Assembly (NCBI GenBank): GCA_024654345.1
Contig: JANLIN010000056.1
Location: forward strand, 1 to 21,118
Reading direction: 5' to 3'
DNA from: Candidatus Komeilibacteria bacterium
GTDB taxonomy: Bacteria > Patescibacteriota > Patescibacteriia > UBA1558
DNA length: 21,118 nucleotides
The position numbers and the translations under genes were made by a program. The notes below the pieces were generated by a model. The model saw only the letters and a program-made list of their open reading frames with translations. It was not told the DNA's origin and searched no databases. The first letter of the stretch is position 1; each line of letters opens with the position of its first letter. Below, piece by piece: positions 251 to 16,872 of the stretch.

Positions 251-1075
251 TTATGATATTCCGTTTTCGCCGCGTTCTTCCTTTTGCACCAGACTGGTGC
301 GCAAAGCGGCAAAATCGATGGTTTTTAAAAATCCTAGAGTCACTGTTTTATCAGTTGGCTCGACTTTAACTCGTCTGACGTTCGCAACAGTCTGCAGACG
401 ACCGTCAGCGTAGCCGTTGACCGCCGTCCGTGAATCAATATCAATCACTATTGTCTGGGGTGAAACAATATCACAGGGATAGGCTCCAGTGGCGACGCCA
501 GCCACCGCCCAGCTATTGGAATCAAGAGGCAAAACTATGGCACTACCCTTAGACTTAAGCGCGTACGCAGTAGTGCCTTGCGCCGTGGCGATGATAATTC
601 CATTACCGTTAACGCGGCGATTGGGAAAGTGGCTTAGAGACCCGCGGATCGTGAATGTATTGTAGTCAGCTATATCACTGCCACAGAAAATATCATTGAA
701 GGCAAGGTGCTCGATCTCTCTACCTTGTTGATCAGTAAAAGTGACCTTGATAAGATTGACGGCTATCTGATTTAGCTCCGACAAATGTGTCGGGATTTGA
801 CTGATATCACTGATCGGGTTCAGCAGGAAGCCGAGGCGACCCCGGTTTATCCCGAAGAAAACTTTTTTCGACTGGTAGTATTGCCGACAAGCGTGCATAA
901 ACCCACCATCTCCCGTTGCTACTAGAAAGGCATTGGCCTTGTCCGGATTTTCAGTCACCACGCCGCTGGGAAGAAGGTAATCACGGACCCAGGCTCTGAC
1001 GTCCGCGCTTCGCTCGGCACCGGTGTCTTCTTCCGGCGGTAGAATGGGGTAATAAATTAATCTGTCATCGTTCAT
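251..1075 (-). CDS. nadK: NAD+ kinase (NadK/PpnK)
   Basis: 274 aa with a GDGG motif (LVATGDGGFMHA) and a TAQGTTAYALKSKGS segment resembling the NAD kinase GGDG / TPTGSTAYS motifs. An AGGAA RBS lies upstream. The gene sits within the NAD cluster. Confidence 0.75.
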   Translation of the reverse strand: MNDDRLIYYPILPPEEDTGAERSADVRAWVRDYLLPSGVVTENPDKANAFLVATGDGGFMHACRQYYQSKKVFFGINRGRLGFLLNPISDISQIPTHLSELNQIAVNLIKVTFTDQQGREIEHLAFNDIFCGSDIADYNTFTIRGSLSHFPNRRVNGNGIIIATAQGTTAYALKSKGSAIVLPLDSNSWAVAGVATGAYPCDIVSPQTIVIDIDSRTAVNGYADGRLQTVANVRRVKVEPTDKTVTLGFLKTIDFAALRTSLVQKEERGENGIS

Positions 1076-1135
1076 GGTATTTCCTATTTATTTAGTTTTT
1101 AAATTACTCATCACAAAGATGTAAGTTTACATCTC

Positions 1136-1170
1136 TCTGATAAGCGGGAAAAGAGATTTTCTCTTTTCCC
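1136..1170. promoter_or_regulatory. Intergenic element TCTGATAAGC + perfect 11-bp-arm palindrome GGGAAAAGAGA-TTT-TCTCTTTTCCC between Nudix and nadK
   Basis: Perfect inverted repeat at 1146-1170. It shares a 10-mer prefix and arm consensus with the element at 1948-1980. Confidence 0.5.
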
Positions 1171-1176
1171 AAACTT

Positions 1177-1875
1177 TTAGGAATTACGCTCTTTTTGCAG
1201 CGTTTTCCAGAATGTCTTCGCCGCCGTGACAAAAGAGCTAAACTCTTTTTTCAGTTGCGCCAATTCAGGACGCTTCTCTAATATCTCGCCCACCTCGGCT
1301 AAAGTCTCCCGAACTTTGGCTTCGGTGCCGGTAGTCAACAGCAAGGATAATCGTTTACGACTCAAGAACCAGCTCACCAAAGCCATTGTTTTGGCATCGT
1401 TGAACGTCATATTCACCACCTCACGGCAGGAGATTACGTGTCGCCGAATATCTTCACCGCCTTCTGTCTGATAATGGTCGCGAGCGGACAATCGACGACT
1501 ATCTACTTCCACATAGGCCAGATAAGCGGCTCCTGAAACTATCCCTGGCGATAGAGATATCGGAGAACCATCATTAACGATCACAACTTCAGCTTCGGAT
1601 AGTTTGAGACCAATTTCTTCCTCAACCTCCTTAACCGCCAGCTGCTGAATAGTATAGTTGCCGTCAAAGCGGCCGGCGACTATTTCCATTGAATCTGGAT
1701 CGTGCTGGTGCTGTCCGTATTTCTTGGCCGGCCTTTTCTGCTCTATAAAGACAAGGCAATCCAAGTCTTTCAGATATACCAACACCGCCACGGCGTCTGT
1801 ATCGCAAACCACGGTATCGCCGCTTTTTTCATCACGGACGACTTTTATAAAATCGTTTTTGAATAAATGTTCCAT
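1177..1875 (-). CDS. Nudix hydrolase (ADP-ribose pyrophosphatase-like)
   Basis: Nudix box AGRFDGNYTIQQLAVKEVEEEIGL (G-x5-E-x7-REV-x-EE-x-G). The ORF track starts at 1884 (MRIMEHL), but the second ATG at 1875 (MEHLFK) has a better-spaced AAAGGA SD, so the true start may be 1875 or 1884. Confidence 0.7.
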   Translation of the reverse strand: MEHLFKNDFIKVVRDEKSGDTVVCDTDAVAVLVYLKDLDCLVFIEQKRPAKKYGQHQHDPDSMEIVAGRFDGNYTIQQLAVKEVEEEIGLKLSEAEVVIVNDGSPISLSPGIVSGAAYLAYVEVDSRRLSARDHYQTEGGEDIRRHVISCREVVNMTFNDAKTMALVSWFLSRKRLSLLLTTGTEAKVRETLAEVGEILEKRPELAQLKKEFSSFVTAAKTFWKTLQKERNS

Positions 1876-1947
1876 AATTCTCATCCTTTCTTTTTTTGTG
1901 AAATGAACGTGCTTTTGCTTATGACAATCATCTATAATATAAATGAC

Positions 1948-1980
1948 TCTGATAAGCAGGGAAAGGAGTTCCTTTCCCTG
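1948..1980. promoter_or_regulatory. Intergenic element TCTGATAAGC + 11-bp-arm palindrome CAGGGAAAGGA-GT-TCCTTTCCCTG between pncB and Nudix
   Basis: Inverted repeat at 1957-1980. Sister copy of the 1136-1170 element. Confidence 0.5.
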
Positions 1981-1985
1981 GAGAA

Positions 1986-3284
1986 TTAATAAACACAGGC
2001 CTCTTCAAACTTGTTCTCATAATGCACAAGTTTTTTATACCTGGCTATTTCGTCGGGATCGCCGGTGGCCTTGGCAATATTATCACTCAGCTTGACCAGC
2101 TTGCAACCATTCGCCTCTGTCGGCTTGATTACGATCGAGAGCGGATTTAGCCCCAGAAAATCGAAAGTAAGATTGGTACCCCAGCCATTACCAATATTTA
2201 TTAGTCGGGCGTACTTCTTATACAAACTGATCATGAGGGGAAGTTTTAGACCGTCGCTATAGAAAAGCGTCTTACGATTGCTATCAATCTTCCGTCGCTT
2301 GTAGTGAGCGATCACTTTTTCACTATATTGCGCCGGGTCACCCGAATCCTGTCGAAATCCCAGCCATTGCTGGAAATCATTGTCTTTCATATTATGAAAA
2401 AAATAATCACTTCCGTATGTGTCTGTCGGTGGCACCATGCGATCAAATCCGTACATCGCCAGCCAACGATCCATAAATTCACGCTGGGCTTGAGACAGAT
2501 CTCCACCCGCCGCCAATTTCAAACCGGCAATAACCATCTGCGGCTCATGTGCCGACGTACCGCGCGGTATCAGGGAATCTTCTTTGGCAATAAAGACATT
2601 GGACGTACCCTGGAAGTTTTCCGGTAGCGCTCTGGCCACAGTATTGGTAACATATCTCTGCCACTCGGGATGAAAAGCACGGCGCGTGCCAAAATCCACA
2701 AACGGCAATAAGTATGGATAATTCTGCTCTTCGGACCACTGATTTAGACTACGAAGATCGCTTATTTTTGCTTTCAGCCGCGCTATACCGTTCTTGATTA
2801 GAGATTCTTTTTGGGAAATCGTCATCTCCTTCAGCCACGCCTGGCAAGCCAACGCGTTCACTATCTGCAAGGCCGGTATTTCCCAGTACGTTGATTGCTT
2901 CCAAGCCTGTGAGAATTCCAGCTCTAGCTGTCCGTCCGGCGATATCTCCAAATTATAATCTGACCACTGGAAATTTTTCAGAAATTCCAGGTATCCCGTG
3001 GTATCTGACAGATTCTCACCCCTTACTATGTTACCGATATATGCCACCTCGGCCGCTGTCGGCAGTACTGTTTTGACGTGGTCGAGCTCTTCTTTCAATC
3101 GGCCAATATCTATCAAGCGCCCCAGCTTCACCGCCGTCGTCCGGTTGATAAAGCTGGAATTTGTCTCGACATCTCTGTACCATTTATGGATGAACTGCCC
3201 CATTGTAAATTTGTACATATCAGTCTGTAGAAAAGACTTAATTATCGGCTCGTCCACCGTTTTTAGGATTTTATCTACTATCAT
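1986..3284 (-). CDS. pncB: Nicotinate phosphoribosyltransferase
   Basis: 432 aa; the N-terminal FLQTDMYKFTMGQ matches the NAPRTase hallmark (TDxYKxTM). Length is typical. The start overlaps the upstream gene's stop (ATGA), indicating translational coupling. Confidence 0.8.
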   Translation of the reverse strand: MIVDKILKTVDEPIIKSFLQTDMYKFTMGQFIHKWYRDVETNSSFINRTTAVKLGRLIDIGRLKEELDHVKTVLPTAAEVAYIGNIVRGENLSDTTGYLEFLKNFQWSDYNLEISPDGQLELEFSQAWKQSTYWEIPALQIVNALACQAWLKEMTISQKESLIKNGIARLKAKISDLRSLNQWSEEQNYPYLLPFVDFGTRRAFHPEWQRYVTNTVARALPENFQGTSNVFIAKEDSLIPRGTSAHEPQMVIAGLKLAAGGDLSQAQREFMDRWLAMYGFDRMVPPTDTYGSDYFFHNMKDNDFQQWLGFRQDSGDPAQYSEKVIAHYKRRKIDSNRKTLFYSDGLKLPLMISLYKKYARLINIGNGWGTNLTFDFLGLNPLSIVIKPTEANGCKLVKLSDNIAKATGDPDEIARYKKLVHYENKFEEACVY

Positions 3285-4138
3285 TTTGCCACTCCTGTCT
3301 TGTCATGAATTTCTGTATAGAGAGAGGTGGAGAAGGCACAGTGTGGAGAAAGAATTTGTCGCGCAATGCTGGTAATTGTACCTGTCAAATAACTTGACAG
3401 AACTTTCCACTGATCAGCGCCGTCAATCATCCCTAGACGCGTCGCCACCAAATGTACTCTTTGTTCAAAAACAGCCACGGCATCTTCTATTTCACCTTTC
3501 GCGCCTAGTGCGGGCGGTCCCCCATTGGTTGATATAGTTCTTAACACGTTAACCGGCACGAAATGCTTCAATTTCTTAAAAACAGCGTCTATATCATGCA
3601 TGAAAGAATGCAAACGACCATTAGCGCCAATGAGAATATCCAAAGAGTCCATAAAACTATCGGCATAGCCAACCATACTGGCGGCCACATATACCGGGAC
3701 ATCATCGTCTTCGACGTACATCATAAAATGAGGGCAGCTGTGTCCTAAGTGAGGAATGTTCAGACGACGAGCCACTTCTATTGCAACCGCGTCCACACCC
3801 ATATTCGAAGCGCCATGCGCTATCCGTACGTCTATTCCGGGGAATTCGGTCTGAAGTACCCTGATGCAGTTCGCCAACAGCGATTTACAAGCTTCTTCGT
3901 AAGCTCCAACTTTTACACCCCAGACAGCGCACTGATCAGCCGATAGATGGCTATACCCATTCATTCCTAAGACTATCGTATCCTTGCCCTCCAGATGTTG
4001 CCTAGTGGCTTTTTCGTATTCTTCCGGAAAGAAGATCGGCTTGCGCGTAAAAATTCTTTTCCGCCCATTATATTCTACAACCACGCCTCCTTTGACTTTT
4101 TTAATGGATCCCAGTTTATCGGCCTTATTCTTTGCCAT
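3281..4138 (-). CDS. Conserved hypothetical Rossmann-fold protein, possibly SLOG-superfamily (DprA/LOG-like) nucleotide-processing enzyme, co-translated with pncB
   Basis: 285 aa starting at MAKNK, with a GTGAGG RBS 9 nt upstream; I prefer this start to the track's 4189 start. The segment RIAHGASNMGVDAVAIEVARRL resembles the DprA/SLOG glycine-rich Rossmann motif (SGxAxGxDxxAHxxAL). It overlaps the pncB start by 4 nt. Confidence 0.45.
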   Translation of the reverse strand: MAKNKADKLGSIKKVKGGVVVEYNGRKRIFTRKPIFFPEEYEKATRQHLEGKDTIVLGMNGYSHLSADQCAVWGVKVGAYEEACKSLLANCIRVLQTEFPGIDVRIAHGASNMGVDAVAIEVARRLNIPHLGHSCPHFMMYVEDDDVPVYVAASMVGYADSFMDSLDILIGANGRLHSFMHDIDAVFKKLKHFVPVNVLRTISTNGGPPALGAKGEIEDAVAVFEQRVHLVATRLGMIDGADQWKVLSSYLTGTITSIARQILSPHCAFSTSLYTEIHDKTGVAK

Positions 4139-4237
4139 AGTAAAAACCTCACTTCCTAAATTGTGTTTATTAATAATATTAATGTACATACTTCTTAAGA
4201 AGCTTGGTCCGAAATAGTTCAGACAAAACTTTTTAAG

Positions 4238-4271
4238 CGGGATAAGTGATGTTTAACATCGCCTTATCCCG
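4238..4271. promoter_or_regulatory. Nested hairpin CGGGATAAG-[TGATGTTTAACATCGC]-CTTATCCCG downstream of pncA
   Basis: 9-bp outer stem and an inner GATGTT/AACATC stem. It may be the pncA terminator or an attenuator; only a weak T-run follows. Confidence 0.4.
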
Positions 4272-4276
4272 AAATA

Positions 4277-4984
4277 CTAACCGATCAGTTCTCGGGTAGT
4301 CGTGAGTCTCACGCCAGCCGTTTTGAAAAACATATTCATTTCCTCATGACCCGCCTCGTCTCCCAAATCCTGCGTGGCATCTTTTACCACAGTCACCTGA
4401 TAGCCAAGGTCTGCTAAATCCAAAGCCGTCCAACCAACACAATAGCGATATACCAGCCCACAGACAAATATTTTTTTCGGGCGCATCTGCTTAATAATAG
4501 GTAAGAGGACTAGCTCACGTCCGGCATTGTCTCTCACGGCGCTATAAGAATCACGCGTCGGCTCCAATCCTTTCCTTACTACAACGCCATCGTATTCAGC
4601 AAAGGCCTGATGTTTTCCGGCTTCTTTACCTAGGCCATGATCCGGCCATAAGGTTTGATGATGAATTCTACGTAAGTAAAGTTTGAGATCATCGACGGTA
4701 AATTTAGCCTTTGGTCCTATTTTGCTATCTTCTTTCGTCCACTGCGCCACTTCCTCGTAGGTAAGCACGTAAAAATTCGGTAAGTCGACGTATGAACTGG
4801 CAAAAGATATATGACCAACCTCATGTACATCTAGCGTGAATACTCTCTTATCCTCCGGGAAAAGCGGTAGGATTCTCTTGATAGGTGCAATCACTTTGTC
4901 GCCACCTTGTACAGCTAATCCGCCACCCGGCATGAAAGTGAGAGTAGCATCTATCACCACCAGTGCGTCCTGTCTTCCTATCAT
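4277..4984 (-). CDS. pncA: Nicotinamidase (isochorismatase family, PncA)
   Basis: 235 aa. It has ALVVIDATLTF (catalytic Asp region), a metal-binding DVHEVGH (D-x-H-x3-H) and the catalytic Cys context FVCGLVYRYCVGWT. An AAGGAG RBS lies upstream. Confidence 0.75.
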   Translation of the reverse strand: MIGRQDALVVIDATLTFMPGGGLAVQGGDKVIAPIKRILPLFPEDKRVFTLDVHEVGHISFASSYVDLPNFYVLTYEEVAQWTKEDSKIGPKAKFTVDDLKLYLRRIHHQTLWPDHGLGKEAGKHQAFAEYDGVVVRKGLEPTRDSYSAVRDNAGRELVLLPIIKQMRPKKIFVCGLVYRYCVGWTALDLADLGYQVTVVKDATQDLGDEAGHEEMNMFFKTAGVRLTTTRELIG

Positions 4985-5059
4985 TGGCTTTCAGCTCCTT
5001 TCTGTTTAATCAATGAACTACACTCTTTAGCAATTAGAAACTCTGCTCCTGAAAAGCAG

Positions 5060-5088
5060 TGCTTATAGCTGTTAAAAAGCCTTGTCAA
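5060..5088 (-). promoter_or_regulatory. Putative sigma70 promoter for pncA (-35 TTGACA, -10 TATAAG or TAAGCA)
   Basis: On the minus strand, TTGACA (complement of 5083-5088) is followed 15-17 nt later by TATAAG/TAAGCA, about 80 bp upstream of the pncA start. Confidence 0.4.
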
Positions 5089-5120
5089 ATTCCGTAAAAA
5101 TTAACATTAAATAGAATTTA

Positions 5121-5157
5121 TGTCAACCCCAGTCATGTTTAACACGACCGGGGTTAA
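5121..5157 (-). terminator. Stem-loop downstream of the vWA gene (AACCCCAGTC...GACCGGGGTT, loop ATGTTTAACAC); possible terminator or regulatory hairpin
   Basis: A 10-bp stem with one G-U pair lies about 20 nt after the vWA stop. The T-run is imperfect. The loop shares the ATGTTTAACA core with the hairpin at 4238-4271. Confidence 0.35.
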
Positions 5158-5177
5158 CTTGAATGAAAAAAGTGCGT

Positions 5178-5966
5178 TTAGTTGCCGAAACCACCCATGG
5201 CGGCCTGGCTGAAATTGGCGGCTGATTGACTGGCGCGAACTGCCGATTGAGAGAAAAGCAGGAAGGCCTGGCGAATCTCTTTCTCTGTATTCTTCGGTGT
5301 CAGGATCCATTCATCAGGTATGCCCATGTCCGAGAATACCCGTTGGAAATCCGTACTACCATCATCAATGCCCATCGCTGCCACGATATGCATCTCTGTT
5401 TTTAACATGTCCTTCACCACCACCGCCACATCCTTGGCGCTGTACTTACGCGAGTGCTGATCACTGCCGTCGCTGATGATAAGCGTGATGGTGCGGGCCG
5501 GGACGCCATTGTCGGAGAATTCCTGCGCCTTGGCCAGAACAGTACCCAGTAGTACTATCGTCTGGTCATAGAGTGGGGTGCCCTGGTCAGGATTGTAGTT
5601 CTGAGTATCCATTATTTCCGCTTGTTCCACCATCGTGTACGGGTAAAGGATCTTCCCGTTTAGATAGCGATTATGCGCTAGTATATTGTCTTTCTGTTTA
5701 GAGGCGCGCAGGGAATTGAGTACCAGATTGTGACCGTTCCTGACCGCGGCGGCATTGCCGGCGAAACGGATAGACCCGGAATCATCCGGCATCATGCTTA
5801 CCAGTATTACCTCGCTGGCTTCAACATCGTCGACGGCCACGCCCAGCGCCGCCTGTATTTCGGCGCCGATATCCAGGACATTTAGTATCTGCTCAGATTG
5901 GGCGGACAGATTACCGTCTGCTTTGGCGTTGTTCACCAACTGACTTACTTTGCTTTGCTTGTTCAT
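5178..5966 (-). CDS. von Willebrand factor A (vWA) domain protein, TerY-like
   Basis: 262 aa from MNKQSK, with a strong AGGAGG RBS; I prefer this start to the track's upstream-extended 6128 start, which overlaps the previous gene. The MIDAS motif DDSGSI (DxSxS) and a second ISDGSD are present. The C-terminus has a Q/S-rich tail. Confidence 0.75.
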   Translation of the reverse strand: MNKQSKVSQLVNNAKADGNLSAQSEQILNVLDIGAEIQAALGVAVDDVEASEVILVSMMPDDSGSIRFAGNAAAVRNGHNLVLNSLRASKQKDNILAHNRYLNGKILYPYTMVEQAEIMDTQNYNPDQGTPLYDQTIVLLGTVLAKAQEFSDNGVPARTITLIISDGSDQHSRKYSAKDVAVVVKDMLKTEMHIVAAMGIDDGSTDFQRVFSDMGIPDEWILTPKNTEKEIRQAFLLFSQSAVRASQSAANFSQAAMGGFGN

Positions 5967-6042
5967 TTTGTGACCTCCTGGCTCCGACGATAGTGTCGAA
6001 GCCGTTTTTTGTGATTGAAAAATATTTTTCCGTGCTAGTGTC

Positions 6043-7086
6043 TTATAGATTGAGATCGGGCCAATCTTCCAAAGGTTGAGTCGTCTTGACGACATGCATG
6101 CCCGCCGCCGCAAAACGACGAAACGCATCGTCGGCTTGGTCGGTGAAATCTATAATACCCGGCACGACCACGGCGGAAGTACAATCTTCCAACAAGTAAA
6201 CCTTTTTGGCCAGTTCCGGATCGTGAGCTTGTATTTCATTGAGTAAGTCATCAATCGTCCAAGCCACGCAATGACTTTTGGCTTGGCCGGCAATGATAAC
6301 AGCGTCATATTTCATCAGCTTCTCAATAAAACGAGAATTACTCTGTGCGATCGGACGTCCGGTATGATCTTCCGTTATTTCCGGCTTCAAGACAGAATAA
6401 TTTTCTGTCAGTGGATTACCGCCTTTGATTTCGAAACCGGTTTGGCTGGTGCGTGCTAAATTGTGAAAGAAAACAGCTTCTTCGATAACCGCCGTCAGAG
6501 CGTGACCAATACCACCCAGCATGGCGTGGTAGGTCCAGATCATCAACGGATATTTTCCGTCTGCCGTCAGCTTGGCCACGTAGTGGCGCGCATATTTCTG
6601 CAGAAAGCTGTAACTACCGGTAATACTGTTGGCGATGGCGGGGTTTACTTTCCATATGCCCTTCTCAACATCCGTCAGCGTAATGATGGTTTGATTCCCG
6701 ATCGGATGTTCGCCCTGATCATTGATCCAAAACACCGGATGAAAGATTTGCATGGCGGTATGAGTGTCCATTGTCGGATCTATCTCTGTAATAACGCCTA
6801 GATAGCGATAGATGAATTCCGCCAATCGGACATTATCTTCGATGGCGCCCTTGCCACTGCGCCCCCCTACAAAAAGTTCAAAATCCGGGAGGCAGAAAGT
6901 ATTCTGCGCGTCTATTACCATCAAGCAGAGACGCGTCTTATCAACGGCGGCTTTCTTGATCTTGTGTTTGTCGGCCCATTCTCTGGCATCACGCGCCCGC
7001 TGTTCGTACGGAACTCTCCAGACACTATCGGCTTTGGACGCATCAAAGTGCTGAGGAATGGGTAATTCGTGGACTGATCTTTTCAT
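6043..7086 (-). CDS. Large nicotinamidase/isochorismatase-family amidase paralog
   Basis: 347 aa. Motifs are CLMVIDAQNTFC (catalytic Asp), DTHTAMQIFH (D-x-H-x6-H metal site as in nicotinamidases) and AGQAKSHCVAWTIDDL (catalytic Cys). About 150 extra residues lie between the metal site and the Cys relative to canonical ~190-aa enzymes. An AAAGGAG RBS lies upstream. Confidence 0.7.
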   Translation of the reverse strand: MKRSVHELPIPQHFDASKADSVWRVPYEQRARDAREWADKHKIKKAAVDKTRLCLMVIDAQNTFCLPDFELFVGGRSGKGAIEDNVRLAEFIYRYLGVITEIDPTMDTHTAMQIFHPVFWINDQGEHPIGNQTIITLTDVEKGIWKVNPAIANSITGSYSFLQKYARHYVAKLTADGKYPLMIWTYHAMLGGIGHALTAVIEEAVFFHNLARTSQTGFEIKGGNPLTENYSVLKPEITEDHTGRPIAQSNSRFIEKLMKYDAVIIAGQAKSHCVAWTIDDLLNEIQAHDPELAKKVYLLEDCTSAVVVPGIIDFTDQADDAFRRFAAAGMHVVKTTQPLEDWPDLNL

Positions 7087-7137
7087 GACTAATACTCCTT
7101 TCTAAGAGTTTTTTGTGAAGTTCGAAACTGTGTTTTT

Positions 7138-9003
7138 CTATGTTAAACGTAACAGATTTATTTCTCGACGCGATACCACGTAGAGCCCCTCTCGACCAGG
7201 ATGTAGATAAGACTGAGAGCTGACAAAGGGCTCGGTGTCAGGATACTCCTGCACGATCGCCAGGTTGTGGCCGCTTATACCAATCTTGAATATTCCTTCA
7301 TCGCTAGTCGAAAGTATTTTATCGCCGACCGGACATTTGCCGCGAATAGTACCAAGCCAACTACCATCGTCGGCTTCGGCGCTACCGATAGCGATAACGC
7401 TTCCGGCCGGCCCTATTACTTCGCACCGGTTAACGGTTTTGCCTTGAACGCGGCTACTGGTAAAAAACCAGGCGTTGTCAGCGACAAAAACAGTGGTGGC
7501 GTCGAGTAACTGACCCGTTATAGCGACCATATTTTTTACATCCTTCAATCCTTTCCGCTGATAATCAAACAAAAAGGTACGTCGGATTTCACCGGCCTGA
7601 TAAAATCCCAATCCCTGGTGTGCCCCGCTCCAAAGCAGAGTCTGATTGGATAAGGCCTGTCCCATGAATTCTTGGCCAAATTTTCCCCGGCGTAACAATT
7701 GTCCATTGTTGAGCCAAAACAGCCGGCCTGCACTGCTGTCAAACATCGGGATGTGGCGATAGTGATCCACGGCGTACTTGTTTTCTAGACGTTCCCGGTG
7801 GTATTCATGGATAACTCCGTTTAGACCCACCCAGGTAGTCTCGCCCCAGATCCGAAATCTGGCATTGGCGAAAGTTTCCGGAAAAGGTATTTTCCAACCC
7901 TCTTCTCTAACCAGTTGACCGTTTTCTCGGACCAGCCAGATTAGTCGCTCATTGTCAGTAGTAGCCTGGACAATCTGTCCTTTCGTCTGATAAAGACGAG
8001 TTGCCTTCACGGTACCGCGAATTACCGTTACCTCCCGGATAGCCGCCGGCGCCGCCGTACTACAAGTCGGACAGATGGATCGTGCGTGTTCCTGACCACA
8101 CTGCTGACAGGTAGTAAAACGGGTTAATTGCAGTAGTTTTTCCGGAAAGGGGTTTCTTTTGTCCTGGACAAATGTCTGATAAAAATAATCCAGCAAATCA
8201 TCAGAGAGAACACTGTAGTGAACCGCCGGCTTAGGATACTTTACTTCCGGATGAAAGACGGTAATCCGCTTGAGCGGACGTAGCTGATGGATTATTCGCT
8301 GTTTCTTGTCAGCCGGTCGGTAGATACCCCCATAAGGATCTACATACAGCAGACTATTCATCAGCATGACTGTAAAGGCATACCAATCCGAGGAGCTTGT
8401 AAACGGTTTGTATAGCTCGAGCGATTGGCGACGCGCGTCGGTCAGCAAAGGGTCAAGGAATTTGACAGTAAACATCCGACAAAGATAGCGTCCAAACTGA
8501 TAGCTGTCGGTATCTATCAGATAGGCTTGCTCATCTTTCACCAGAACATTCAAATCGTTAAAATCACCAACCACTACTTTCCTATCGTGCAAAGCCGAAA
8601 CAGCTTGGAGAAGCGAGCTGAATATTGTCAGTAGCGCGTTATTGTCCACTCTCCCCGGCCGGAACTTCTTGTCGCTGAAGCGCAACATTACTTCCGAGTC
8701 GGCAATGAGTGGCATACTGTAACCAACTATAAATCCCTTGCTATCTGACGCCAGTGCCACCGGTGCCACTATATTGGCCGGCAATCCAGCAGGAAAATCT
8801 GACAGTTTTGTTTGATGTTCCTCTAGCCTGTGCCGGGCCCCTTGTTGCTCCAGCGGCAGTCCGCGCAAATCGGGATGATGGGGAGACTTAAAAATTTTAA
8901 GTGCCAGTTTATCGTTTAGTCGATAAATATCGGCTTCTCCGCCCTTGCCAATGGCTTGCGCGGGAGTGATATTTATCGGATTGCCGGCTAAATAGATTTT
9001 CAT
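7138..9003 (-). CDS. Ser/Thr protein kinase-like protein with central zinc ribbon and C-terminal beta-propeller-like repeats
   Basis: 621 aa. It has a glycine-rich loop IGKGGEADIY, a Lys in ALKIFK, a catalytic loop HDRKVVVGDFNDLNVLV and LIDTDS (DFG-like). CQQCGQEHARSICPTC forms a CxxC...CxxC ribbon. Repeated W/G-rich blades follow. A GGAGG RBS lies upstream. The start overlaps the PP2C stop (ATGA). Confidence 0.7.
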   Translation of the reverse strand: MKIYLAGNPINITPAQAIGKGGEADIYRLNDKLALKIFKSPHHPDLRGLPLEQQGARHRLEEHQTKLSDFPAGLPANIVAPVALASDSKGFIVGYSMPLIADSEVMLRFSDKKFRPGRVDNNALLTIFSSLLQAVSALHDRKVVVGDFNDLNVLVKDEQAYLIDTDSYQFGRYLCRMFTVKFLDPLLTDARRQSLELYKPFTSSSDWYAFTVMLMNSLLYVDPYGGIYRPADKKQRIIHQLRPLKRITVFHPEVKYPKPAVHYSVLSDDLLDYFYQTFVQDKRNPFPEKLLQLTRFTTCQQCGQEHARSICPTCSTAAPAAIREVTVIRGTVKATRLYQTKGQIVQATTDNERLIWLVRENGQLVREEGWKIPFPETFANARFRIWGETTWVGLNGVIHEYHRERLENKYAVDHYRHIPMFDSSAGRLFWLNNGQLLRRGKFGQEFMGQALSNQTLLWSGAHQGLGFYQAGEIRRTFLFDYQRKGLKDVKNMVAITGQLLDATTVFVADNAWFFTSSRVQGKTVNRCEVIGPAGSVIAIGSAEADDGSWLGTIRGKCPVGDKILSTSDEGIFKIGISGHNLAIVQEYPDTEPFVSSQSYLHPGREGLYVVSRREINLLRLT

Positions 9004-9824
9004 GTTATTCCCCTCCTTTCCGGACCGACCTTTCGTATGACAACCAGGGTGGTGTCATCAGTTAGGTGGCCATTTTGCACTTCCATCCGGCTCTCCTGCC
9101 AGAGTGGCCGACTAACGTCGCGGTTAACCAACGTAAGCTGACGACGAACACTGTCCGGATTCTTGAAATACCGATCTTCCGTCCAGAAATTCAGCAACGG
9201 ACCGACTTCTCTGTCCTGACCGGGCACGATTTTATTGGCCGCCGCTACATAATCACCAATACCGTCAGTGGCTATCAACAGATGAGAAATGGCCGCCGTT
9301 TTTTCCTGCACCTTCATCTGCCACATAAACCGCTGATCCATGGGTTGAAATAGACCATAAGCGATGTAGGGTGGCTGATTGTCAGAAAATGGTCCGAGGG
9401 CGATATAATTGTCATTGCAGACAATTAAACCGTCACCGATTGCCGCTATGACCAGTCTATCTTCGTGGATTACCGCCGCGATAGCGGTGAATAGACCGTA
9501 GTCCTCGATGAATCTATTGGCGCCGCTAGGGTTGGGTCGTGTCAGCCAATACAACTCACGTAAAACATCCAAGCGCACGGTATCCCAGTACCGCGTGGAG
9601 CTGATATTCAGAGACAAATTTCTTTTCAGGCTGTTGGCTATCAGCTGAGCACCCAACTTGGCGCCAACTTCACTGCCGGGACTACTGCCACAACCGTCTG
9701 TCACAACGGCGATGATACTGTCATTGCCAGGCAAGATGCAGAAGGCGTCTTGATTGTTACGACCAGATTGCCGATGGTGACGTCCGATGACACTACCGCC
9801 GGCTATTTCAAACAAATCTTTCAT
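9000..9824 (-). CDS. PP2C-family Ser/Thr protein phosphatase
   Basis: 274 aa. Motifs are GRHHRQSGRNNQDAF (R-x-x-NQD), VVTDGCGSSPGSEVGAKLG (DGxGG...G) and LIATDGIGD (second metal-binding Asp). An AAGGAG RBS lies upstream. Confidence 0.75.
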   Translation of the reverse strand: MKDLFEIAGGSVIGRHHRQSGRNNQDAFCILPGNDSIIAVVTDGCGSSPGSEVGAKLGAQLIANSLKRNLSLNISSTRYWDTVRLDVLRELYWLTRPNPSGANRFIEDYGLFTAIAAVIHEDRLVIAAIGDGLIVCNDNYIALGPFSDNQPPYIAYGLFQPMDQRFMWQMKVQEKTAAISHLLIATDGIGDYVAAANKIVPGQDREVGPLLNFWTEDRYFKNPDSVRRQLTLVNRDVSRPLWQESRMEVQNGHLTDDTTLVVIRKVGPERRGIT

Positions 9825-9932: not shown

Positions 9933-9961
9933 CTTAGTGTTAAATATACACTTACTAATAT
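9933..9961. repeat. Copy A of a ~27-bp direct repeat CTTAGTGTwAAwATATACAC..TA.TA flanking nrtR (palindromic core GTGTTAAATATACAC)
   Basis: It matches 10661-10689 in the same orientation at about 24 of 27 positions. It lies between the nrtR stop and the PP2C-kinase operon start. Confidence 0.5.
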
Positions 9962-9981: not shown

Positions 9982-10659
9982 TTACAAAATATTAACCACT
10001 GCCAGAGATCGACTGGTAAATTCAAATAATGCCGCCGGCCGATTGGCCTCACCCCTTCTCTTCTTGCCGGTGGTCTTCACCAATCCTAACGACCCGACTT
10101 TTTTGCGAAAATTTCGCTTGTCGATCTCCTGATCCAAAATTATCTCGTATACTTTCTGTAATTCCGACAAAGTAAACTGCCGGGGTAACAAACTGTAAAC
10201 TATGTTGGTATAGCCGAGCTTGGAGCGCAGTCTCTTTACACCCGTCTTTAATATTTCCGCATGATCGTAAGCCAGCGCAGGTAGCTTGGCCACCGGCCAC
10301 CAACGCACGTCCGCGTATTCGGCGGTAGTCTTTAACATCAAACTTTTATCATACGGTAATAATGCGTAGTAGGCGACGGACAATACTCGACCGTAGGGAT
10401 CTCTTTTTTCCCCGCCAAAAGCATATAGCTGTTCCAAGAAAATATCAGACACGCCGGTCTTGGCCTGAAGGTGGCGACGCGCGGCTTTCTCGACTGATTC
10501 GCTGATTTTAACCATGCCGCCCGGCAAAGCCCATTTTCCTTGATAAGGCTTCTTTTTCATCTTTATCAACAGAACGTTGAGCGCCTCGCCTCGCAGGCTG
10601 AAAATAACCACATCCGTGGCGGCGGCGACAAATTTGAATTTTTGATAAGGTTTACTCAT
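9982..10659 (-). CDS. nrtR: NrtR-family Nudix-related transcriptional regulator of NAD metabolism
   Basis: 225 aa. The N-terminal Nudix fold has GKWALPGGMVKISESVEKAARRHLQAKTG. The C-terminal winged-helix region has FTLSELQKVYEIILDQEIDKRNFRKKV, typical of NrtR. It is located inside an NAD salvage cluster. Confidence 0.65.
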   Translation of the reverse strand: MSKPYQKFKFVAAATDVVIFSLRGEALNVLLIKMKKKPYQGKWALPGGMVKISESVEKAARRHLQAKTGVSDIFLEQLYAFGGEKRDPYGRVLSVAYYALLPYDKSLMLKTTAEYADVRWWPVAKLPALAYDHAEILKTGVKRLRSKLGYTNIVYSLLPRQFTLSELQKVYEIILDQEIDKRNFRKKVGSLGLVKTTGKKRRGEANRPAALFEFTSRSLAVVNIL

Positions 10660-10660
10660 A

Positions 10661-10689
10661 CTTAGTGTAATATATACACATAGTATTTC
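10661..10689. repeat. Copy B of the nrtR-flanking direct repeat (palindromic core GTGTAATATATACAC), 6 nt upstream of the nrtR start codon
   Basis: Same motif as 9933-9961. The 15-bp core is palindromic (GTGTA-ATATA-TACAC). It sits where the nrtR SD would be; nrtR has no obvious SD. Confidence 0.5.
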
Positions 10690-12862: not shown

Positions 12863-14200
12863 TTAATCCTCCTTATAATGTCCCACCTTACAGTGCGGGC
12901 ACAGTGTATATTCGATATCGCTCTCACACCAAGGACAGCTGTTTGTATCCTTATCAATAATAATAAGCTTGCCACAATCTTCGTTTGGACAAGGAGCTTT
13001 TAGCAACCCCGCTTCACAATGAGGACAGTCAGTCGCATCTGCCCAAATTAAACCGTCACAAACCGGACAACTTACTTCAACTAATGCTTTAGAACAAGTT
13101 GGACATTTTGTCTCATATGTCAAGTCTTCCTCCAAATAATGGTCGCTCCGCTTGCACAGATACAGATCTGCATTACATTCCGGACATTCCTTGTCACCAT
13201 CTATAATGACCGAATCACCACAAGAAGGGCATGGTGTTCTCTTCACCTCCGTGCCGCACTTGGAACATTTTTCCTCATCCTCATACATATCCTCGTCACA
13301 CTTTGGACAACTGTCTGGGTTGAGACTCTTAAGACAATTGGGACACGTTCCGCCATCTTCAGGATCTTGAGTTATATATTTTTTACATCGAGGACATACG
13401 TACAACGCAGAACCACACGCCGGACAGTCCTTATCTCCGTTAATAAATATATTACTAGTGCATTCCGGACATTTAGTTAGCTCCAGTTTTGTGTTGCAAT
13501 GACCACATTGACTCGAATCGGCATAAATACTAGTGCAGCAATTTGGACAAGAATCATATCTATATGTTCTTTGACAAGAAACGCACTCATCCAGTATATC
13601 CGGATTAACCGCGATAAATTCGTGACATCGCGGACAATTATACACGTCGCTGAGACAACTACCACACCGCATTTCGTTTATATCTTCTGGCGATAACATC
13701 TTTTCACAAGCAGGACATTCTTTTCTCCTATTCTCTGGCACAAAAACATCTCCTGGAATTACAGGTTCAGAATCATCATCGTAAACCCCATGGTTTCCTT
13801 GTAACTCATATTCATGCTCTTTCGATTCTCCGACATCTGGCGCAGCCCAAGGCATCTTCCACACTTCATCACTACCACTGACATATATCACGCTGTCAAA
13901 TCTTATATCCGGAAATTGCGTCGCCAGGCTATATAGCATCTGCTTTTTTTGATCATAGCCCCAGTGCTTTTCAAATTTGAAATCCGCACGTAGTTTTCCT
14001 AGCTGTTTCGAGAAAACAAAGAGTGACTTGTCCGGAAGCTCTATCACTACCTTAGAAACACCACCCAGAACCACTTTCTCCAAACGGCCTTCCATATCTT
14101 CCAATGGGTCTGACTGTGCCACTTCAGGCAAAGCGCCCTTAATAAAGTAACTTAGGATAGAGGTCACTAATCCAGGTATTGATGCTAGTACTTCTTTCAT
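12863..14200 (-). CDS. Poly-zinc-ribbon protein: ~140-aa Cys-free N-terminal domain followed by ~10 tandem CxxC-x(7-14)-CxxC zinc-ribbon modules
   Basis: 445 aa with repeated CPxC...CxxC units (CPACEK..CGSC, CPRC..CVSC, CPNC..CGHC, CPEC..CPAC, CPRC..CPNC, CPKC..CSKC, CPSC..CPEC, CPTC..CPVC, CPHC..CPNEDC, CPWC..CPHC). A GAGGT RBS lies upstream. A TTGACA-17-TAGATT promoter lies on the minus strand at about 14248-14276. Confidence 0.7.
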   Translation of the reverse strand: MKEVLASIPGLVTSILSYFIKGALPEVAQSDPLEDMEGRLEKVVLGGVSKVVIELPDKSLFVFSKQLGKLRADFKFEKHWGYDQKKQMLYSLATQFPDIRFDSVIYVSGSDEVWKMPWAAPDVGESKEHEYELQGNHGVYDDDSEPVIPGDVFVPENRRKECPACEKMLSPEDINEMRCGSCLSDVYNCPRCHEFIAVNPDILDECVSCQRTYRYDSCPNCCTSIYADSSQCGHCNTKLELTKCPECTSNIFINGDKDCPACGSALYVCPRCKKYITQDPEDGGTCPNCLKSLNPDSCPKCDEDMYEDEEKCSKCGTEVKRTPCPSCGDSVIIDGDKECPECNADLYLCKRSDHYLEEDLTYETKCPTCSKALVEVSCPVCDGLIWADATDCPHCEAGLLKAPCPNEDCGKLIIIDKDTNSCPWCESDIEYTLCPHCKVGHYKED

Positions 14201-16166: not shown

Positions 16167-16168
16167 AC

Positions 16169-16870: not shown

Positions 16871-16872
16871 TA

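What the first reader, a model, noticed from the sequence alone, without database searches (positions are those of the whole stretch)
5178..9824. TerY-P-like triad (PP2C phosphatase, ZnR/beta-propeller Ser/Thr kinase, standalone vWA) with an embedded giant nicotinamidase-family amidase, inside an NrtR-associated NAD salvage cluster
Four co-directional, tightly spaced genes appear to form one operon. PP2C and kinase overlap by ATGA, and the whole run is bracketed by a hairpin at 5121-5157 and the repeat at 9933-9961. vWA + PP2C + STK triads (TerY-P triads) are described as mobile phospho-switch modules linked to Ter/metal stress. Here the triad carries a 347-aa nicotinamidase-like hydrolase with intact Asp, Cys and D-x-H-x6-H metal motifs, and it sits between pncA and the NrtR regulator. 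That placement suggests a phosphorylation-gated enzyme acting on nicotinamide or an NAD-derived nucleotide. Candidate roles are NAD-centred phage conflict (NAD depletion/reconstitution) or stress signalling. I am not aware of this association being described.
Basis: partly seen in the sequence, partly recalled or inferred. Interest (0 to 1): 0.85.

Follow-up and report, generated by a model that had tools for sequence, protein, structure and literature searches.

The report
Kinase-switched nicotinamidase module under NrtR
Four genes (a phosphatase, a protein kinase, an enlarged nicotinamidase-type enzyme and a vWA protein) form a deeply conserved unit that sits under the NAD-breakdown sensor NrtR in bacteria and also occurs in huge phages, which suggests an undescribed phosphorylation-controlled step in NAD recycling.

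Summary
On the minus strand, PP2C (9824-9000), a 621-aa kinase (9003-7138, ATGA overlap), a 347-aa amidase (7086-6043) and a vWA protein (true start 5966, not 6128; ends 5178) form one run. An NrtR operator (9933-9956) precedes it and a 17-bp hairpin (5122-5158) follows it.

The amidase model has the nicotinamidase fold, and all catalytic and metal residues are invariant. The kinase is YegI-like, with a zinc ribbon and a seven-repeat all-beta C-terminal domain. The 262-aa protein is a vWA domain with a full MIDAS motif.

The linkage is not chance. 34 of 51 well-flanked genome loci from cyanobacteria, CPR and other phyla carry all four genes. 42 of 50 PP2C-bearing loci have an NrtR box upstream. 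Distant versions in IMG/VR contigs and GenBank huge-phage genomes keep the four genes in a permuted order, often beside pncB, nadD-like or RNA-repair genes.

I read it as an ADP-ribose-induced, phospho-switched nicotinamide-salvage module. That mechanism is inferred, not shown. I found no description of it in the searchable literature. It is a new variant of known kinds: a TerY-P triad plus a nicotinamidase in the NrtR regulon.

The parts
9982..10659 (-). nrtR: Nudix-related transcriptional repressor. The Nudix box is degenerate (RHLQAK in place of REUxEE), so it is a sensor, not a hydrolase.
   Evidence: PF21906 NrtR_WHD 1.3e-24 and NUDIX 5.5e-17. NCBIfam NrtR 3.4e-46. Sequence read.
10661..10684 (.). 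NrtR operator box 2 (CTTAGTGTAATATATACACATAGT), overlapping the nrtR start and a promoter-like site
   Evidence: The core AGTGT-N7-ACAC fits the published GT-N7-AC NrtR palindrome (PMC2330246).
9933..9956 (.). NrtR operator box 1 (CTTAGTGTTAAATATACACTTACT), 109 nt upstream of the PP2C start codon
   Evidence: The same box lies upstream of PP2C in 42 of 50 PP2C-bearing loci.
9000..9824 (-). PP2C-type Ser/Thr phosphatase (274 aa)
   Evidence: PF13672 PP2C_2 5e-22. Invariant D26, D43-G44, D131-G132, D187-G188 and D256-D257.
8119..9003 (-). Kinase domain (aa 1-295) of the 621-aa protein; YegI-like Hanks-type fold
   Evidence: AF2 pLDDT 90.3. Foldseek matches to protein kinases at E about 1e-7. BLASTP against E. 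coli YegI 1e-10. Invariant G19-x-G21, K36, D147, N152 and D164.
8056..8115 (-). Zinc ribbon (aa 297-316; C299-x2-C302 ... C311-P-x-C314)
   Evidence: The four Cys are invariant in 44 and 50 sequences.
7141..8031 (-). All-beta C-terminal domain (aa 325-621): seven repeats of about four strands, propeller-like; presumed input or docking domain
   Evidence: DSSP of the AF2 model. No fold match was examined for this part, so 'propeller' is inferred.
6043..7086 (-). 347-aa nicotinamidase-family amidase, with a roughly 50-aa N-terminal extension and an internal insertion
   Evidence: AF2 pLDDT 84.6. Foldseek top hits are nicotinamidases: 2wta 2e-9, 3v8e, 3pl1, 9u8m. Invariant D59, D107-x-H109, H116, W184-x-x-H187, K221 and C273, which align to the window's own PncA motifs.
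5178..5966 (-). 262-aa stand-alone vWA protein with a complete MIDAS motif (D61-x-S63-x-S65, T130, D166) and a conserved S/Q-rich tail ending in GGFG
   Evidence: Start and RBS. Invariant residues. Distant homologues recognised by the family HMM (1e-7 to 1e-26) hit PF00092 above its cut-off. UniRef names some homologues 'VWFA domain-containing protein'.
5122..5158 (-). 17-bp stem-loop just after the vWA stop codon; a likely operon-end terminator or RNA stabiliser. It has no U-tract, so it is not a canonical intrinsic terminator.
   Evidence: -28.3 kcal/mol, z -6.1. Sequence.
251..4984 (-). Co-directional NAD-salvage context: pncA (4984-4277), unknown 302-aa ORF (4189-3281), pncB (3284-1986), ADP-ribose Nudix hydrolase (1884-1177), NAD kinase (1075-251)

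Best explanation
This is a self-contained four-protein module made of two parts. The first is a TerY-P-type phospho-switch: a PP2C phosphatase, a YegI-like Ser/Thr kinase with a zinc ribbon and a beta-rich C-terminal domain, and a MIDAS-bearing vWA protein. The second is an enlarged nicotinamidase. In bacteria the module is an operon of the NrtR regulon.

Proposed working:
(1) NAD+ is split into ADP-ribose and nicotinamide by NAD-consuming or NAD-degrading enzymes.
(2) ADP-ribose releases NrtR from the operator upstream of PP2C, and the operon is transcribed.
(3) The amidase deamidates free nicotinamide to nicotinate. This feeds PncB and the Preiss-Handler route, and it removes a product inhibitor of NAD-consuming enzymes.
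(4) The kinase and PP2C set the phosphorylation state of the vWA protein and/or the amidase. The vWA protein binds the amidase through its metal site and switches it on or off. The kinase's C-terminal domain is the signal input.

Huge phages carry the same four genes without NrtR, next to pncB, nadD-like and NAD-ligase genes. There the module presumably boosts NAD+ resynthesis during infection.

What is shown: gene order, domain identities, intact catalytic residues, conserved operators and conserved linkage. Steps 1-3 follow from published knowledge of NrtR and nicotinamidases. Step 4 is inference from gene linkage and conservation only. The confidence given is for the mechanism as a whole; that the four genes form a real, conserved functional unit I hold at about 0.95.
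For: Linkage:
- 34 of 51 genome loci with enough flank carry PP2C-STK-AMID-vWA, 29 of them with NrtR.
- Hosts include many cyanobacterial genera, four CPR lineages, and Actinomycetota, Entotheonellaceae and Gammaproteobacteria MAGs.
- 15 of 27 amidase-seeded IMG/VR loci carry all four genes, as do more from the vWA-seeded scan. Branches with only 30-38% amidase identity have the order AMID-vWA-PP2C-STK.
- Of three GenBank huge-phage genomes, two (LR756500, LR745208) carry all four genes. The 16.7-kb stretch read from LR756511 holds the amidase, vWA and PP2C genes, with no kinase detected.

NrtR control:
- 85 of 88 strict [AT]GTGT-N7-ACAC[AT] boxes in 1.33 Mb lie upstream of PP2C (69), upstream of the amidase (9) or beside nrtR (7).
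- The core matches the published GT-N7-AC motif, and ADP-ribose releases NrtR in vitro (PMC2330246).

Enzyme:
- Nicotinamidase fold.
- Every nicotinamidase catalytic and metal residue is invariant.
- From established nicotinamidase structures (my knowledge), the metal binds the free pyridine nitrogen. This favours free nicotinamide over NMN or NAD.

Switch:
- Kinase and PP2C catalytic residues are invariant, and the vWA MIDAS motif is complete.

Amidase-vWA coupling:
- The two genes stay adjacent in nearly all arrangements seen. The exceptions are L098, L121 and L090.
- They are far more conserved than their partners. Median identity to the window is 68.5% (amidase) and 64.6% (vWA), against 40-42% for PP2C, kinase and NrtR.

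NAD context:
- pncA, pncB, ADPR hydrolase and NAD kinase in the window.
- pncB, NADK, Nudix or CinA/PncC in L009, L010, L066, L075 and L082.
- ADP-ribosylglycohydrolase genes are inserted inside the operon in Pseudanabaena-type loci (the gene family occurs in 26 loci).
- pncB, a nadD-like gene and an NAD-dependent ligase lie next to the viral versions.
Against: - No experiment or interaction prediction links the kinase, PP2C or vWA protein to the amidase. Substrates of the related E. coli kinase YegI are unknown (10.1101/819920).
- The amidase also occurs without the triad (15 of 51 well-flanked loci), so it can work alone.
- The window also encodes a canonical PncA 1 kb downstream. A second nicotinamidase therefore looks redundant, which hints at a different substrate or role.
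- The sequence link between the amidase and PncA is weak (hhalign E 2.5e-4, probability 43%). The assignment rests on a predicted structure.
- The 80 genome loci are dominated by cyanobacteria, many of them Pseudanabaena, so the counts are not phylogenetically independent.
- The viral status of most IMG/VR contigs was not checked independently. Phage hallmark genes were seen only in L091.
Confidence: 0.5

Rival explanations
1. The amidase is not a nicotinamidase in vivo. It deamidates or hydrolyses another NAD-derived or signalling molecule (for example NMN, nicotinamide riboside, NAD+ to deamido-NAD, or an unknown amide), and the triad controls that reaction.
For: - A canonical PncA sits in the same cluster in the window, and a PncA-like ORF follows the module in L009.
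- CinA/PncC (NMN deamidase) follows the module in L082.
- The enzyme carries large family-specific additions and is unusually constrained, with 172 of 347 positions at least 95% conserved.
- Some members carry a 240-aa N-terminal domain of unknown function.
Against: - The metal ligands D-x-H and W-x-x-H are invariant. Within this fold they are specific to nicotinamidases, where they bind an unsubstituted ring nitrogen (established knowledge of PncA structures). NMN, NR and NAD have a quaternised ring nitrogen.
- The top structural matches are all true nicotinamidases.
- pncB, which consumes nicotinate, is the most frequent metabolic neighbour.
Confidence: 0.15
2. It is an anti-phage defence system of the TerY-P type. 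The triad senses infection, and the amidase is the effector that perturbs NAD or nicotinamide pools.
For: - TerY-P-like modules act as stand-alone defence systems, and TerY-P triads ride with CoCoNuT restriction systems (PMC11090510).
- Induction by ADP-ribose through NrtR would fit sensing of NAD cleavage.
- Published ARG-centred systems with a Nudix-HTH regulator and vWA chaperones are predicted to counter viral ADP-ribosylation (PMC9503650).
Against: - The amidase and vWA protein are very slowly evolving (65-70% identity between CPR and cyanobacteria), unlike arms-race proteins.
- The module sits in NAD-salvage clusters.
- It is itself carried by huge phages next to NAD-synthesis genes.
- Nicotinamide deamidation replenishes NAD rather than depleting it.
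- No PADLOC model matches. That test is uninformative, because E. coli's own YegL/PphC/YegI triad also gives no TerY hit.
Confidence: 0.1
3. The triad and the amidase are functionally independent. The amidase is an ordinary NrtR-regulated salvage enzyme, and the triad is a mobile signalling cassette that happens to have been fixed next to it.
For: - The amidase occurs alone or with NrtR only in 15 of 51 loci. In 8 loci without PP2C an NrtR box lies directly in front of the amidase.
- TerY-P triads are described as mobile units that combine with many partners (PMC11090510).
Against: - The four genes stay together across phyla and in phages, at 30-70% amidase identity, through a change of gene order, and both with and without NrtR.
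- This vWA clade was always found with the amidase in the loci seeded with vWA, apart from one truncated locus (L093).
- In the window the genes overlap or are closely spaced within one operon.
Confidence: 0.08
4. The vWA protein is a metal-insertion or assembly chaperone for the metallo-amidase, by analogy with CoxE, NorD and CbbO. The kinase and phosphatase only tune that maturation step rather than switching a mature enzyme.
For: - The MIDAS motif is complete.
- Some members give weak VWA_CoxE matches.
- An AAA ATPase gene follows the module in two viral loci.
- The amidase depends on a bound metal, as inferred from its ligands.
Against: - No MoxR-type ATPase is present in the window or in most loci.
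- The CoxE matches are below threshold.
- The amidase exists without vWA in many genomes.
Confidence: 0.12

Closest known systems
TerY-P triad (Anantharaman, Iyer & Aravind 2012, as summarised in PMC11090510); E. coli YegL-PphC-YegI is an example
   Same: - It has three genes: a stand-alone vWA protein, a PP2C_2 phosphatase, and a Ser/Thr kinase followed by a zinc ribbon.
- The kinase domain is detectably similar to YegI (1e-10).
- It behaves as a mobile cassette found with varied partners.
   Different: - A nicotinamidase-family enzyme is inserted between the kinase and vWA genes and travels with them.
- The kinase carries an extra domain of about 300 aa, all-beta and propeller-like. It has no membrane segments (YegI) and no OB fold (the defence version).
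- The operon is under NrtR.
- There is no link to ter genes or restriction systems.
- The vWA protein and the PP2C are not detectably close to YegL and PphC in pairwise tests.
Nicotinamidase PncA/Pnc1 (isochorismatase-like hydrolase fold)
   Same: - Same fold.
- Same Asp-Lys-Cys triad, cis-peptide Cys motif, D-x-H and W-x-x-H metal ligands, and K-G...Y-S motif.
- It neighbours pncB.
   Different: - It is 347 aa against about 180-235 aa. It has an N-terminal extension of about 50 aa and an insertion of about 65 aa between the metal motifs.
- It falls below the detection limit of PF00857, the NCBIfam models and PDB sequence searches.
- It is far more conserved across phyla than is usual.
- It is genetically tied to a kinase, a phosphatase and a vWA protein.
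NrtR regulon (Rodionov et al. 2008, PMC2330246)
   Same: - A Nudix-wHTH repressor lies adjacent.
- The operators are 21-bp palindromes with a GT-N7-AC core in front of NAD-salvage genes.
- ADP-ribose is the published effector.
   Different: - The published regulons list nadA/B/C/D/E, pncA/B, nadV/M, prs, niaP and pnuC, plus the unexplained nrtX-nrtY pair. No kinase, PP2C or vWA member is listed.
- I could not determine whether nrtX-nrtY relates to this module, because the supplement is not held.
ARG-centred, Nudix- or WYL-regulated systems predicted to counter viral ADP-ribosylation (Iyer et al. 2022, PMC9503650 section 3.8)
   Same: - An NrtR-like Nudix-HTH regulator senses ADP-ribose.
- A vWA protein is an accessory component.
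- A phosphatase is present.
- In Pseudanabaena-type loci, ADP-ribosylglycohydrolase genes sit inside the operon.
   Different: - Those systems are built around the glycohydrolase, with rhodanese, calcineurin, HD or HAD phosphatases. They have no kinase, no PP2C and no nicotinamidase.
- Their proteins are described as fast-evolving.
Phage NAD+ reconstitution and synthesis pathways (NARP1, NARP2, NARP3; Preiss-Handler gene clusters in jumbo phages)
   Same: Phage-borne copies lie beside pncB, a nadD-like gene and an NAD-dependent ligase. Jumbo phages with pncB-nadD-nadE clusters are published (PMC11662467).
   Different: None of the described pathways includes a nicotinamidase tied to a kinase, PP2C and vWA protein. 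NARP1 is Adps plus Namat, NARP2 is Nampt plus Nmnat, and NARP3 is PnuC plus NadR.

Membership tests
TerY-P triad | A stand-alone TerY-like vWA protein with a MIDAS motif | tested here: met
   D61-x-S63-x-S65, T130 and D166 are invariant. Family members in viral loci hit PF00092 above its cut-off. UniRef uses the name VWFA. Specific closeness to TerY/YegL is not shown: hhalign probability 21%, E 1e-3.
TerY-P triad | PP2C-like phosphatase encoded alongside | tested here: met
   PF13672 5e-22. The metal-binding Asp residues are invariant.
TerY-P triad | Ser/Thr kinase fused at its C-terminus to a zinc ribbon | tested here: met
   Kinase fold. YegI similarity 1e-10. Invariant CxxC...CPxC at 299-314. 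An extra all-beta domain follows the ribbon.
TerY-P triad | The three genes recur together as a conserved neighbourhood | tested here: met
TerY-P defence system (Gao et al. 2020 type) | Kinase fused to an OB fold; protects against phage; matches defence-system HMMs | tested here: not met
   The C-terminal domain is all-beta with seven repeats, not an OB fold. There is no PADLOC TerY hit, but the E. coli control triad also gives none, so the HMM test is uninformative. Protection cannot be tested here.
Nicotinamidase (PncA/Pnc1) | Isochorismatase-like fold | tested here: met
   Foldseek E 2e-9 to 1e-4 against solved nicotinamidases, TM (target-normalised) 0.73-0.77. The model has pLDDT 84.6.
Nicotinamidase (PncA/Pnc1) | Catalytic Asp-Lys-Cys triad | tested here: met
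   D59, K221 and C273 are invariant in 42 and 81 sequences and align to the PncA triad.
Nicotinamidase (PncA/Pnc1) | Metal site D-x-H plus the His of the W-P-x-H motif | tested here: met
   D107, H109 and W184-x-x-H187 (plus H116) are invariant and align to LDVH and WPDH of the window's PncA.
Nicotinamidase (PncA/Pnc1) | Hydrolyses nicotinamide to nicotinate | not testable with these tools
   Needs an enzyme assay.
Nicotinamidase (PncA/Pnc1) | Recognised by the curated family models (PF00857, NF008623) | tested here: not met
   No hit for the window protein. Only distant family representatives reach or approach PF00857: P0240 8.7e-11, above the cut-off; P0127 9.5e-6, 26.2 bits, just under the 27-bit cut-off.
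NrtR regulon | Adjacent NrtR (Nudix plus winged-helix) regulator | tested here: met
   NrtR is present in 46 of 80 loci.
NrtR regulon | Palindromic operator with a GT-N7-AC core upstream of the target operon, conserved across species | tested here: met
   Motif definition from PMC2330246.
NrtR regulon | De-repression by ADP-ribose | not testable with these tools
   Needs EMSA or reporter assays.
PrkC/PrpC housekeeping pair | Membrane kinase with extracellular PASTA repeats | tested here: not met
   No PASTA hit. The model shows a soluble kinase, zinc ribbon and beta domain.

The most novel reading that the evidence does not exclude
The four proteins form a physical complex in which a signal-sensing kinase and its phosphatase toggle a vWA clamp on a dedicated nicotinamidase. 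Bacteria switch the complex on when ADP-ribose reports NAD+ destruction. Huge phages carry the same device, together with pncB and nadD, as a fourth, Preiss-Handler-based way to rebuild NAD+ against NAD-depleting immunity. If so, it would be the first Ser/Thr-phosphorylation control of NAD salvage in prokaryotes and their viruses.
Probability: 0.3. Interest if true: 0.85.

Novelty: new variant of a known kind. Interest (0 to 1): 0.7.

Why it matters
NAD+ depletion and resynthesis is now a central front between bacteria and phages. The known resynthesis routes (NARP1-3, and jumbo-phage salvage clusters) are plain enzyme sets.

This module ties a nicotinamide-processing enzyme to a kinase/phosphatase/vWA switch. 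It is kept together from CPR bacteria and cyanobacteria to 400-600 kb phages.

If the switch controls the enzyme, three things follow:
- It gives a concrete client and a concrete output for a TerY-P triad. The substrates of these triads are unknown, including those of E. coli YegI.
- It adds a post-translational layer to the NrtR regulon.
- It offers a directly testable candidate for a new phage counter-defence route.

The amidase family is large (2,252 clusters at 50% identity) and is invisible to the standard Pfam and NCBIfam models. NAD-salvage reconstructions in cyanobacteria and CPR are therefore likely to miss it.

Tried and rejected
- Direct Pfam, NCBIfam and PDB-sequence searches found nothing for the amidase or the vWA protein, as single sequences or as profiles. 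Both were resolved through structure prediction and distant homologues.
- PADLOC gave no TerY hit. I rejected this as evidence because E. coli YegL/PphC/YegI also score nothing.
- The PP2C against E. coli PphC by BLASTP was not significant.
- The vWA profile against YegL was weak.
A large vWA-centred census could therefore not be done.
- The 240-aa N-terminal domain fused to some amidases has no Pfam or PDB match and no free-standing copy in any fetched locus.
- The 200-aa ORF between the kinase and amidase genes in Pseudanabaena is unrelated to that domain.
- The 302-aa ORF between pncA and pncB has no match anywhere.
- The original TerY-P paper (PMC4104200) is not held.
- The identity of nrtX and nrtY could not be checked.
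- I considered and rejected chance adjacency, a PrkC/PrpC pair, and a P-loop reading of the FVGGRSGKGA segment. That segment corresponds to the conserved PncA 'GG' motif.

Full report
**Source and layout.** The window is the whole 21,118-nt contig of a Candidatus Komeilibacteria (CPR) metagenome-assembled genome. Positions 10659 to 251 hold one co-directional minus-strand run:
- nrtR (10659-9982)
- PP2C (9824-9000)
- a 621-aa kinase (9003-7138)
- a 347-aa amidase (7086-6043)
- a vWA protein
- pncA (4984-4277)
- an unknown 302-aa ORF (4189-3281)
- pncB (3284-1986)
- an ADP-ribose-type Nudix hydrolase (1884-1177)
- NAD kinase (1075-251)

**The observation.**
- The PP2C stop and kinase start overlap as ATGA.
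- The amidase follows the kinase after 51 nt and has its own ribosome-binding site.
- The last gene starts at ATG 5966, behind AGGAGG, where all homologues start. It does not start at 6128. It encodes 262 aa and does not overlap the amidase.
- The 'repeat' at 9933-9961 has a second copy at 10661-10684. None is expected by chance.
- The hairpin after the vWA stop has a 17-bp stem, -28.3 kcal/mol, z = -6.1.
- Plus-strand ORFs inside the span are shadows of the coding strand. They look 'conserved' in other loci only because they overlap very conserved genes.
- The four-gene stretch is slightly richer in G+C (0.48-0.49) than its flanks (0.37-0.47).

**PP2C.** It matches PF13672 at 5e-22, and its metal-binding aspartates are invariant.

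**Kinase.**
- It only grazes Pkinase (1e-4).
- An AlphaFold2 model built on 44 homologues is confident (pLDDT 90.3), and residues 1-295 match protein kinases.
- The domain resembles E. coli YegI (BLASTP 1e-10 over 290 residues).
- G19-x-G21, K36, D147, N152 and D164 are invariant, so it should be active.
- An invariant CxxC...CPxC ribbon follows (299-314). After that comes an all-beta region of seven repeats of about four strands (325-621). 'Propeller' rests on this strand pattern alone.

**Amidase.**
- It hits no Pfam, NCBIfam or PDB sequence model, alone or as a profile.
- Its model (pLDDT 84.6) matches solved nicotinamidases first: A. baumannii PncA at 2e-9, then yeast Pnc1, M. tuberculosis PncA and Drosophila Naam.
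- D59, D107-x-H109, H116, W184-x-x-H187, K221 and C273 are invariant.
- These residues align to the VID, LDVH, WPDH, RKG...YS and YCV motifs of the window's own canonical PncA.

**vWA protein.**
- It has an invariant D-x-S-x-S, T, D MIDAS set.
- Distant family members found by the family HMM hit PF00092 above its cut-off.

**Is the linkage real?** I fetched 80 genome loci that encode close amidase relatives and searched their six-frame ORFs with the window proteins.
- Of 51 loci with enough flank, 34 carry PP2C-kinase-amidase-vWA in that order, 29 of them with NrtR.
- 15 loci have the amidase without the triad.
- Hosts span many cyanobacterial genera, four CPR lineages, and Actinomycetota, Entotheonellaceae and Gammaproteobacteria MAGs.
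- The sample is cyanobacteria-heavy, so these counts are not independent.

Independent support comes from viral collections.
- 15 of 27 IMG/VR loci seeded with the amidase carry all four genes, as do further loci seeded with vWA.
- Two GenBank 'uncultured phage' genomes of 462-485 kb (LR756500, LR745208) carry all four. The stretch read from the 595-kb LR756511 holds the amidase, vWA and PP2C genes.
- In the distant viral branch (amidase 30-38% identical) the order is amidase-vWA-PP2C-kinase.
- Linkage that survives this much divergence and a rearrangement is strong evidence of joint function.
- The amidase and vWA genes stay adjacent in almost every arrangement (exceptions: L098, L121, L090). 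They are also much more conserved than the rest: median identity to the window is 68.5% and 64.6%, against 40-42% for PP2C, kinase and NrtR.

**Regulation.**
- The box is AGTGT-N7-ACAC[T/A], the GT-N7-AC palindrome published for NrtR. ADP-ribose releases NrtR from such sites in vitro (PMC2330246).
- Across the 80 loci, 85 of 88 strict matches lie upstream of PP2C (69), upstream of the amidase (9) or beside nrtR (7). 42 of 50 PP2C-bearing loci have one.
- Cyanobacteria carry two tandem boxes just after a TTGACA in the nrtR-PP2C divergon.
- The window's NrtR has lost the Nudix catalytic glutamates (RHLQAK in place of REUxEE, read), as expected for a sensor.
- Most viral copies lack NrtR and the box.

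**Context.** NAD genes recur around the module:
- pncB, NAD kinase, Nudix or pncA in L009, L010, L066, L074 and L075.
- CinA/PncC, NAD kinase and a NAPRTase-like gene in L082.
- pncB, a nadD-like nucleotidyltransferase and an NAD-dependent ligase next to viral copies, together with Hen1-Pnkp and RlaP RNA-repair genes.
- In Pseudanabaena-type loci, one or two ADP-ribosylglycohydrolase genes sit between the PP2C and kinase genes (the family occurs in 26 loci).

**Interpretation.** I read the module as an ADP-ribose-induced, phospho-switched nicotinamide-salvage unit.
- That NrtR represses it and ADP-ribose induces it follows from the conserved operators and the NrtR literature.
- That the enzyme acts on free nicotinamide follows from the intact metal site. 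In solved nicotinamidases this site binds the unsubstituted ring nitrogen (my knowledge of those structures).
- That the kinase and PP2C act on the vWA protein or the amidase, and that vWA binds the amidase, is inferred only from linkage and the conservation pattern.
- Main doubts: the amidase can occur alone, the window also has a canonical PncA, and no interaction or phosphotransfer has been tested.
- The rivals are a different substrate, a defence system, independent neighbours, and a vWA metallochaperone. They are scored in their own sections.

**Comparison with what is known.**
- The triad meets the stated definition of TerY-P: vWA, PP2C, and a kinase with a C-terminal zinc ribbon (PMC11090510). 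It adds a beta-rich domain and an embedded enzyme.
- It is not the OB-fold defence version. PADLOC is silent, but it is also silent for E. coli's own triad, so that test says nothing.
- Published NrtR regulons list no such genes.
- The nearest published idea is the set of ARG-centred, Nudix-regulated systems with vWA chaperones (PMC9503650). Those lack a kinase, a PP2C and an amidase.
- Phage NAD+ pathways NARP1-3 and jumbo-phage Preiss-Handler clusters are described without this module.
- No held paper contains both 'vWA' and 'nicotinamidase'. Other term combinations also found nothing relevant.
- The original TerY-P paper could not be read, so an earlier mention there cannot be excluded.

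**Verdict.** It is a new variant of known kinds. The biology is plausible and testable, but the mechanism is unproven.

Noticed in passing
window 3281-4189 (-): A 302-aa ORF between pncA and pncB, overlapping the pncB start by 4 nt. It has no Pfam, NCBIfam, PADLOC or PDB match and no homologue in any of the fetched loci. Its position suggests an unrecognised NAD-salvage component. By eye the motif 'HGASNMGVDAVAIEVA' recalls SLOG/DprA-like Rossmann proteins; this was not tested.
   Followed up: partly
L016 4718-5536 and equivalent positions in 26 mostly Pseudanabaena-type loci (e.g. L023, L027, L031): One or two ADP-ribosylglycohydrolase genes (PF03747, 3e-38) are inserted between the PP2C and kinase genes of the operon. 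This ties the module to ADP-ribose release from modified targets.
   Followed up: partly
P0004, P0016 (582-585 aa); L082 10001-11749: Some amidases carry a conserved N-terminal domain of about 240 aa with no Pfam or PDB match. It was never seen as a free-standing gene in the fetched loci. These fused versions still sit in NrtR-PP2C-kinase-amidase-vWA operons, followed by CinA/PncC.
   Followed up: partly
L101 1396-6868 and 14724-16004; L103 5142-6725: In huge-phage contigs the module lies among RNA-repair genes (Hen1, Pnkp-type ligase/phosphatase, RlaP), a DnaJ gene and AAA ATPase genes. An AAA gene follows the kinase gene in two loci.
   Followed up: no
L084 2573 and L085 6288: Two IMG/VR 'viral' contigs have an NrtR-type box directly in front of the amidase gene, although no nrtR gene was found in the stretch. 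Either these are host fragments, or a phage uses the host's NrtR.
   Followed up: no
window 1137-1153 and 1949-1965: A shared motif, CTGATAAGC(G/A)GG(A/G)AAAG, sits about 60-80 nt upstream of the NAD kinase and Nudix hydrolase genes, with a weaker third copy near 4234-4253 upstream of the 302-aa ORF. The significance is marginal (2 of 100 shuffles reach two matches). It may be a promoter or a second operator in the NAD cluster.
   Followed up: partly
window 12863-14200 (-): A 445-aa protein made largely of repeated double zinc ribbons (PF12773, three stretches, 5e-20), followed by a hydrophobic 314-aa ORF with no family match.
   Followed up: no
window 15339-18735 (+): A three-gene run: a weak PspA/IM30-like gene (1.6e-4), a YqiJ/NfeD-like gene and an SPFH/Band 7 gene. 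This is a membrane-stress or flotillin-type cluster unrelated to the finding.
   Followed up: no
nrtR-PP2C intergenic regions of L023, L031, L033, L038, L052, L059, L072: Tandem heptamer repeats (AATTACG/AATTCGT arrays arranged as inverted blocks) lie just upstream of the NrtR boxes in several Pseudanabaena loci.
   Followed up: no
window 5000-9500 against the flanks: The four-gene stretch has G+C of 0.48-0.49, against 0.44-0.47 downstream and 0.36-0.45 upstream. This is compatible with horizontal acquisition or with its unusually constrained protein sequences.
   Followed up: no
PMC2330246, Table 1: Rodionov et al. list unexplained NrtR targets 'nrtX-nrtY' in Streptomyces, Frankia, Proteus and Hahella. 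I could not check whether they correspond to any gene of this module.
   Followed up: partly
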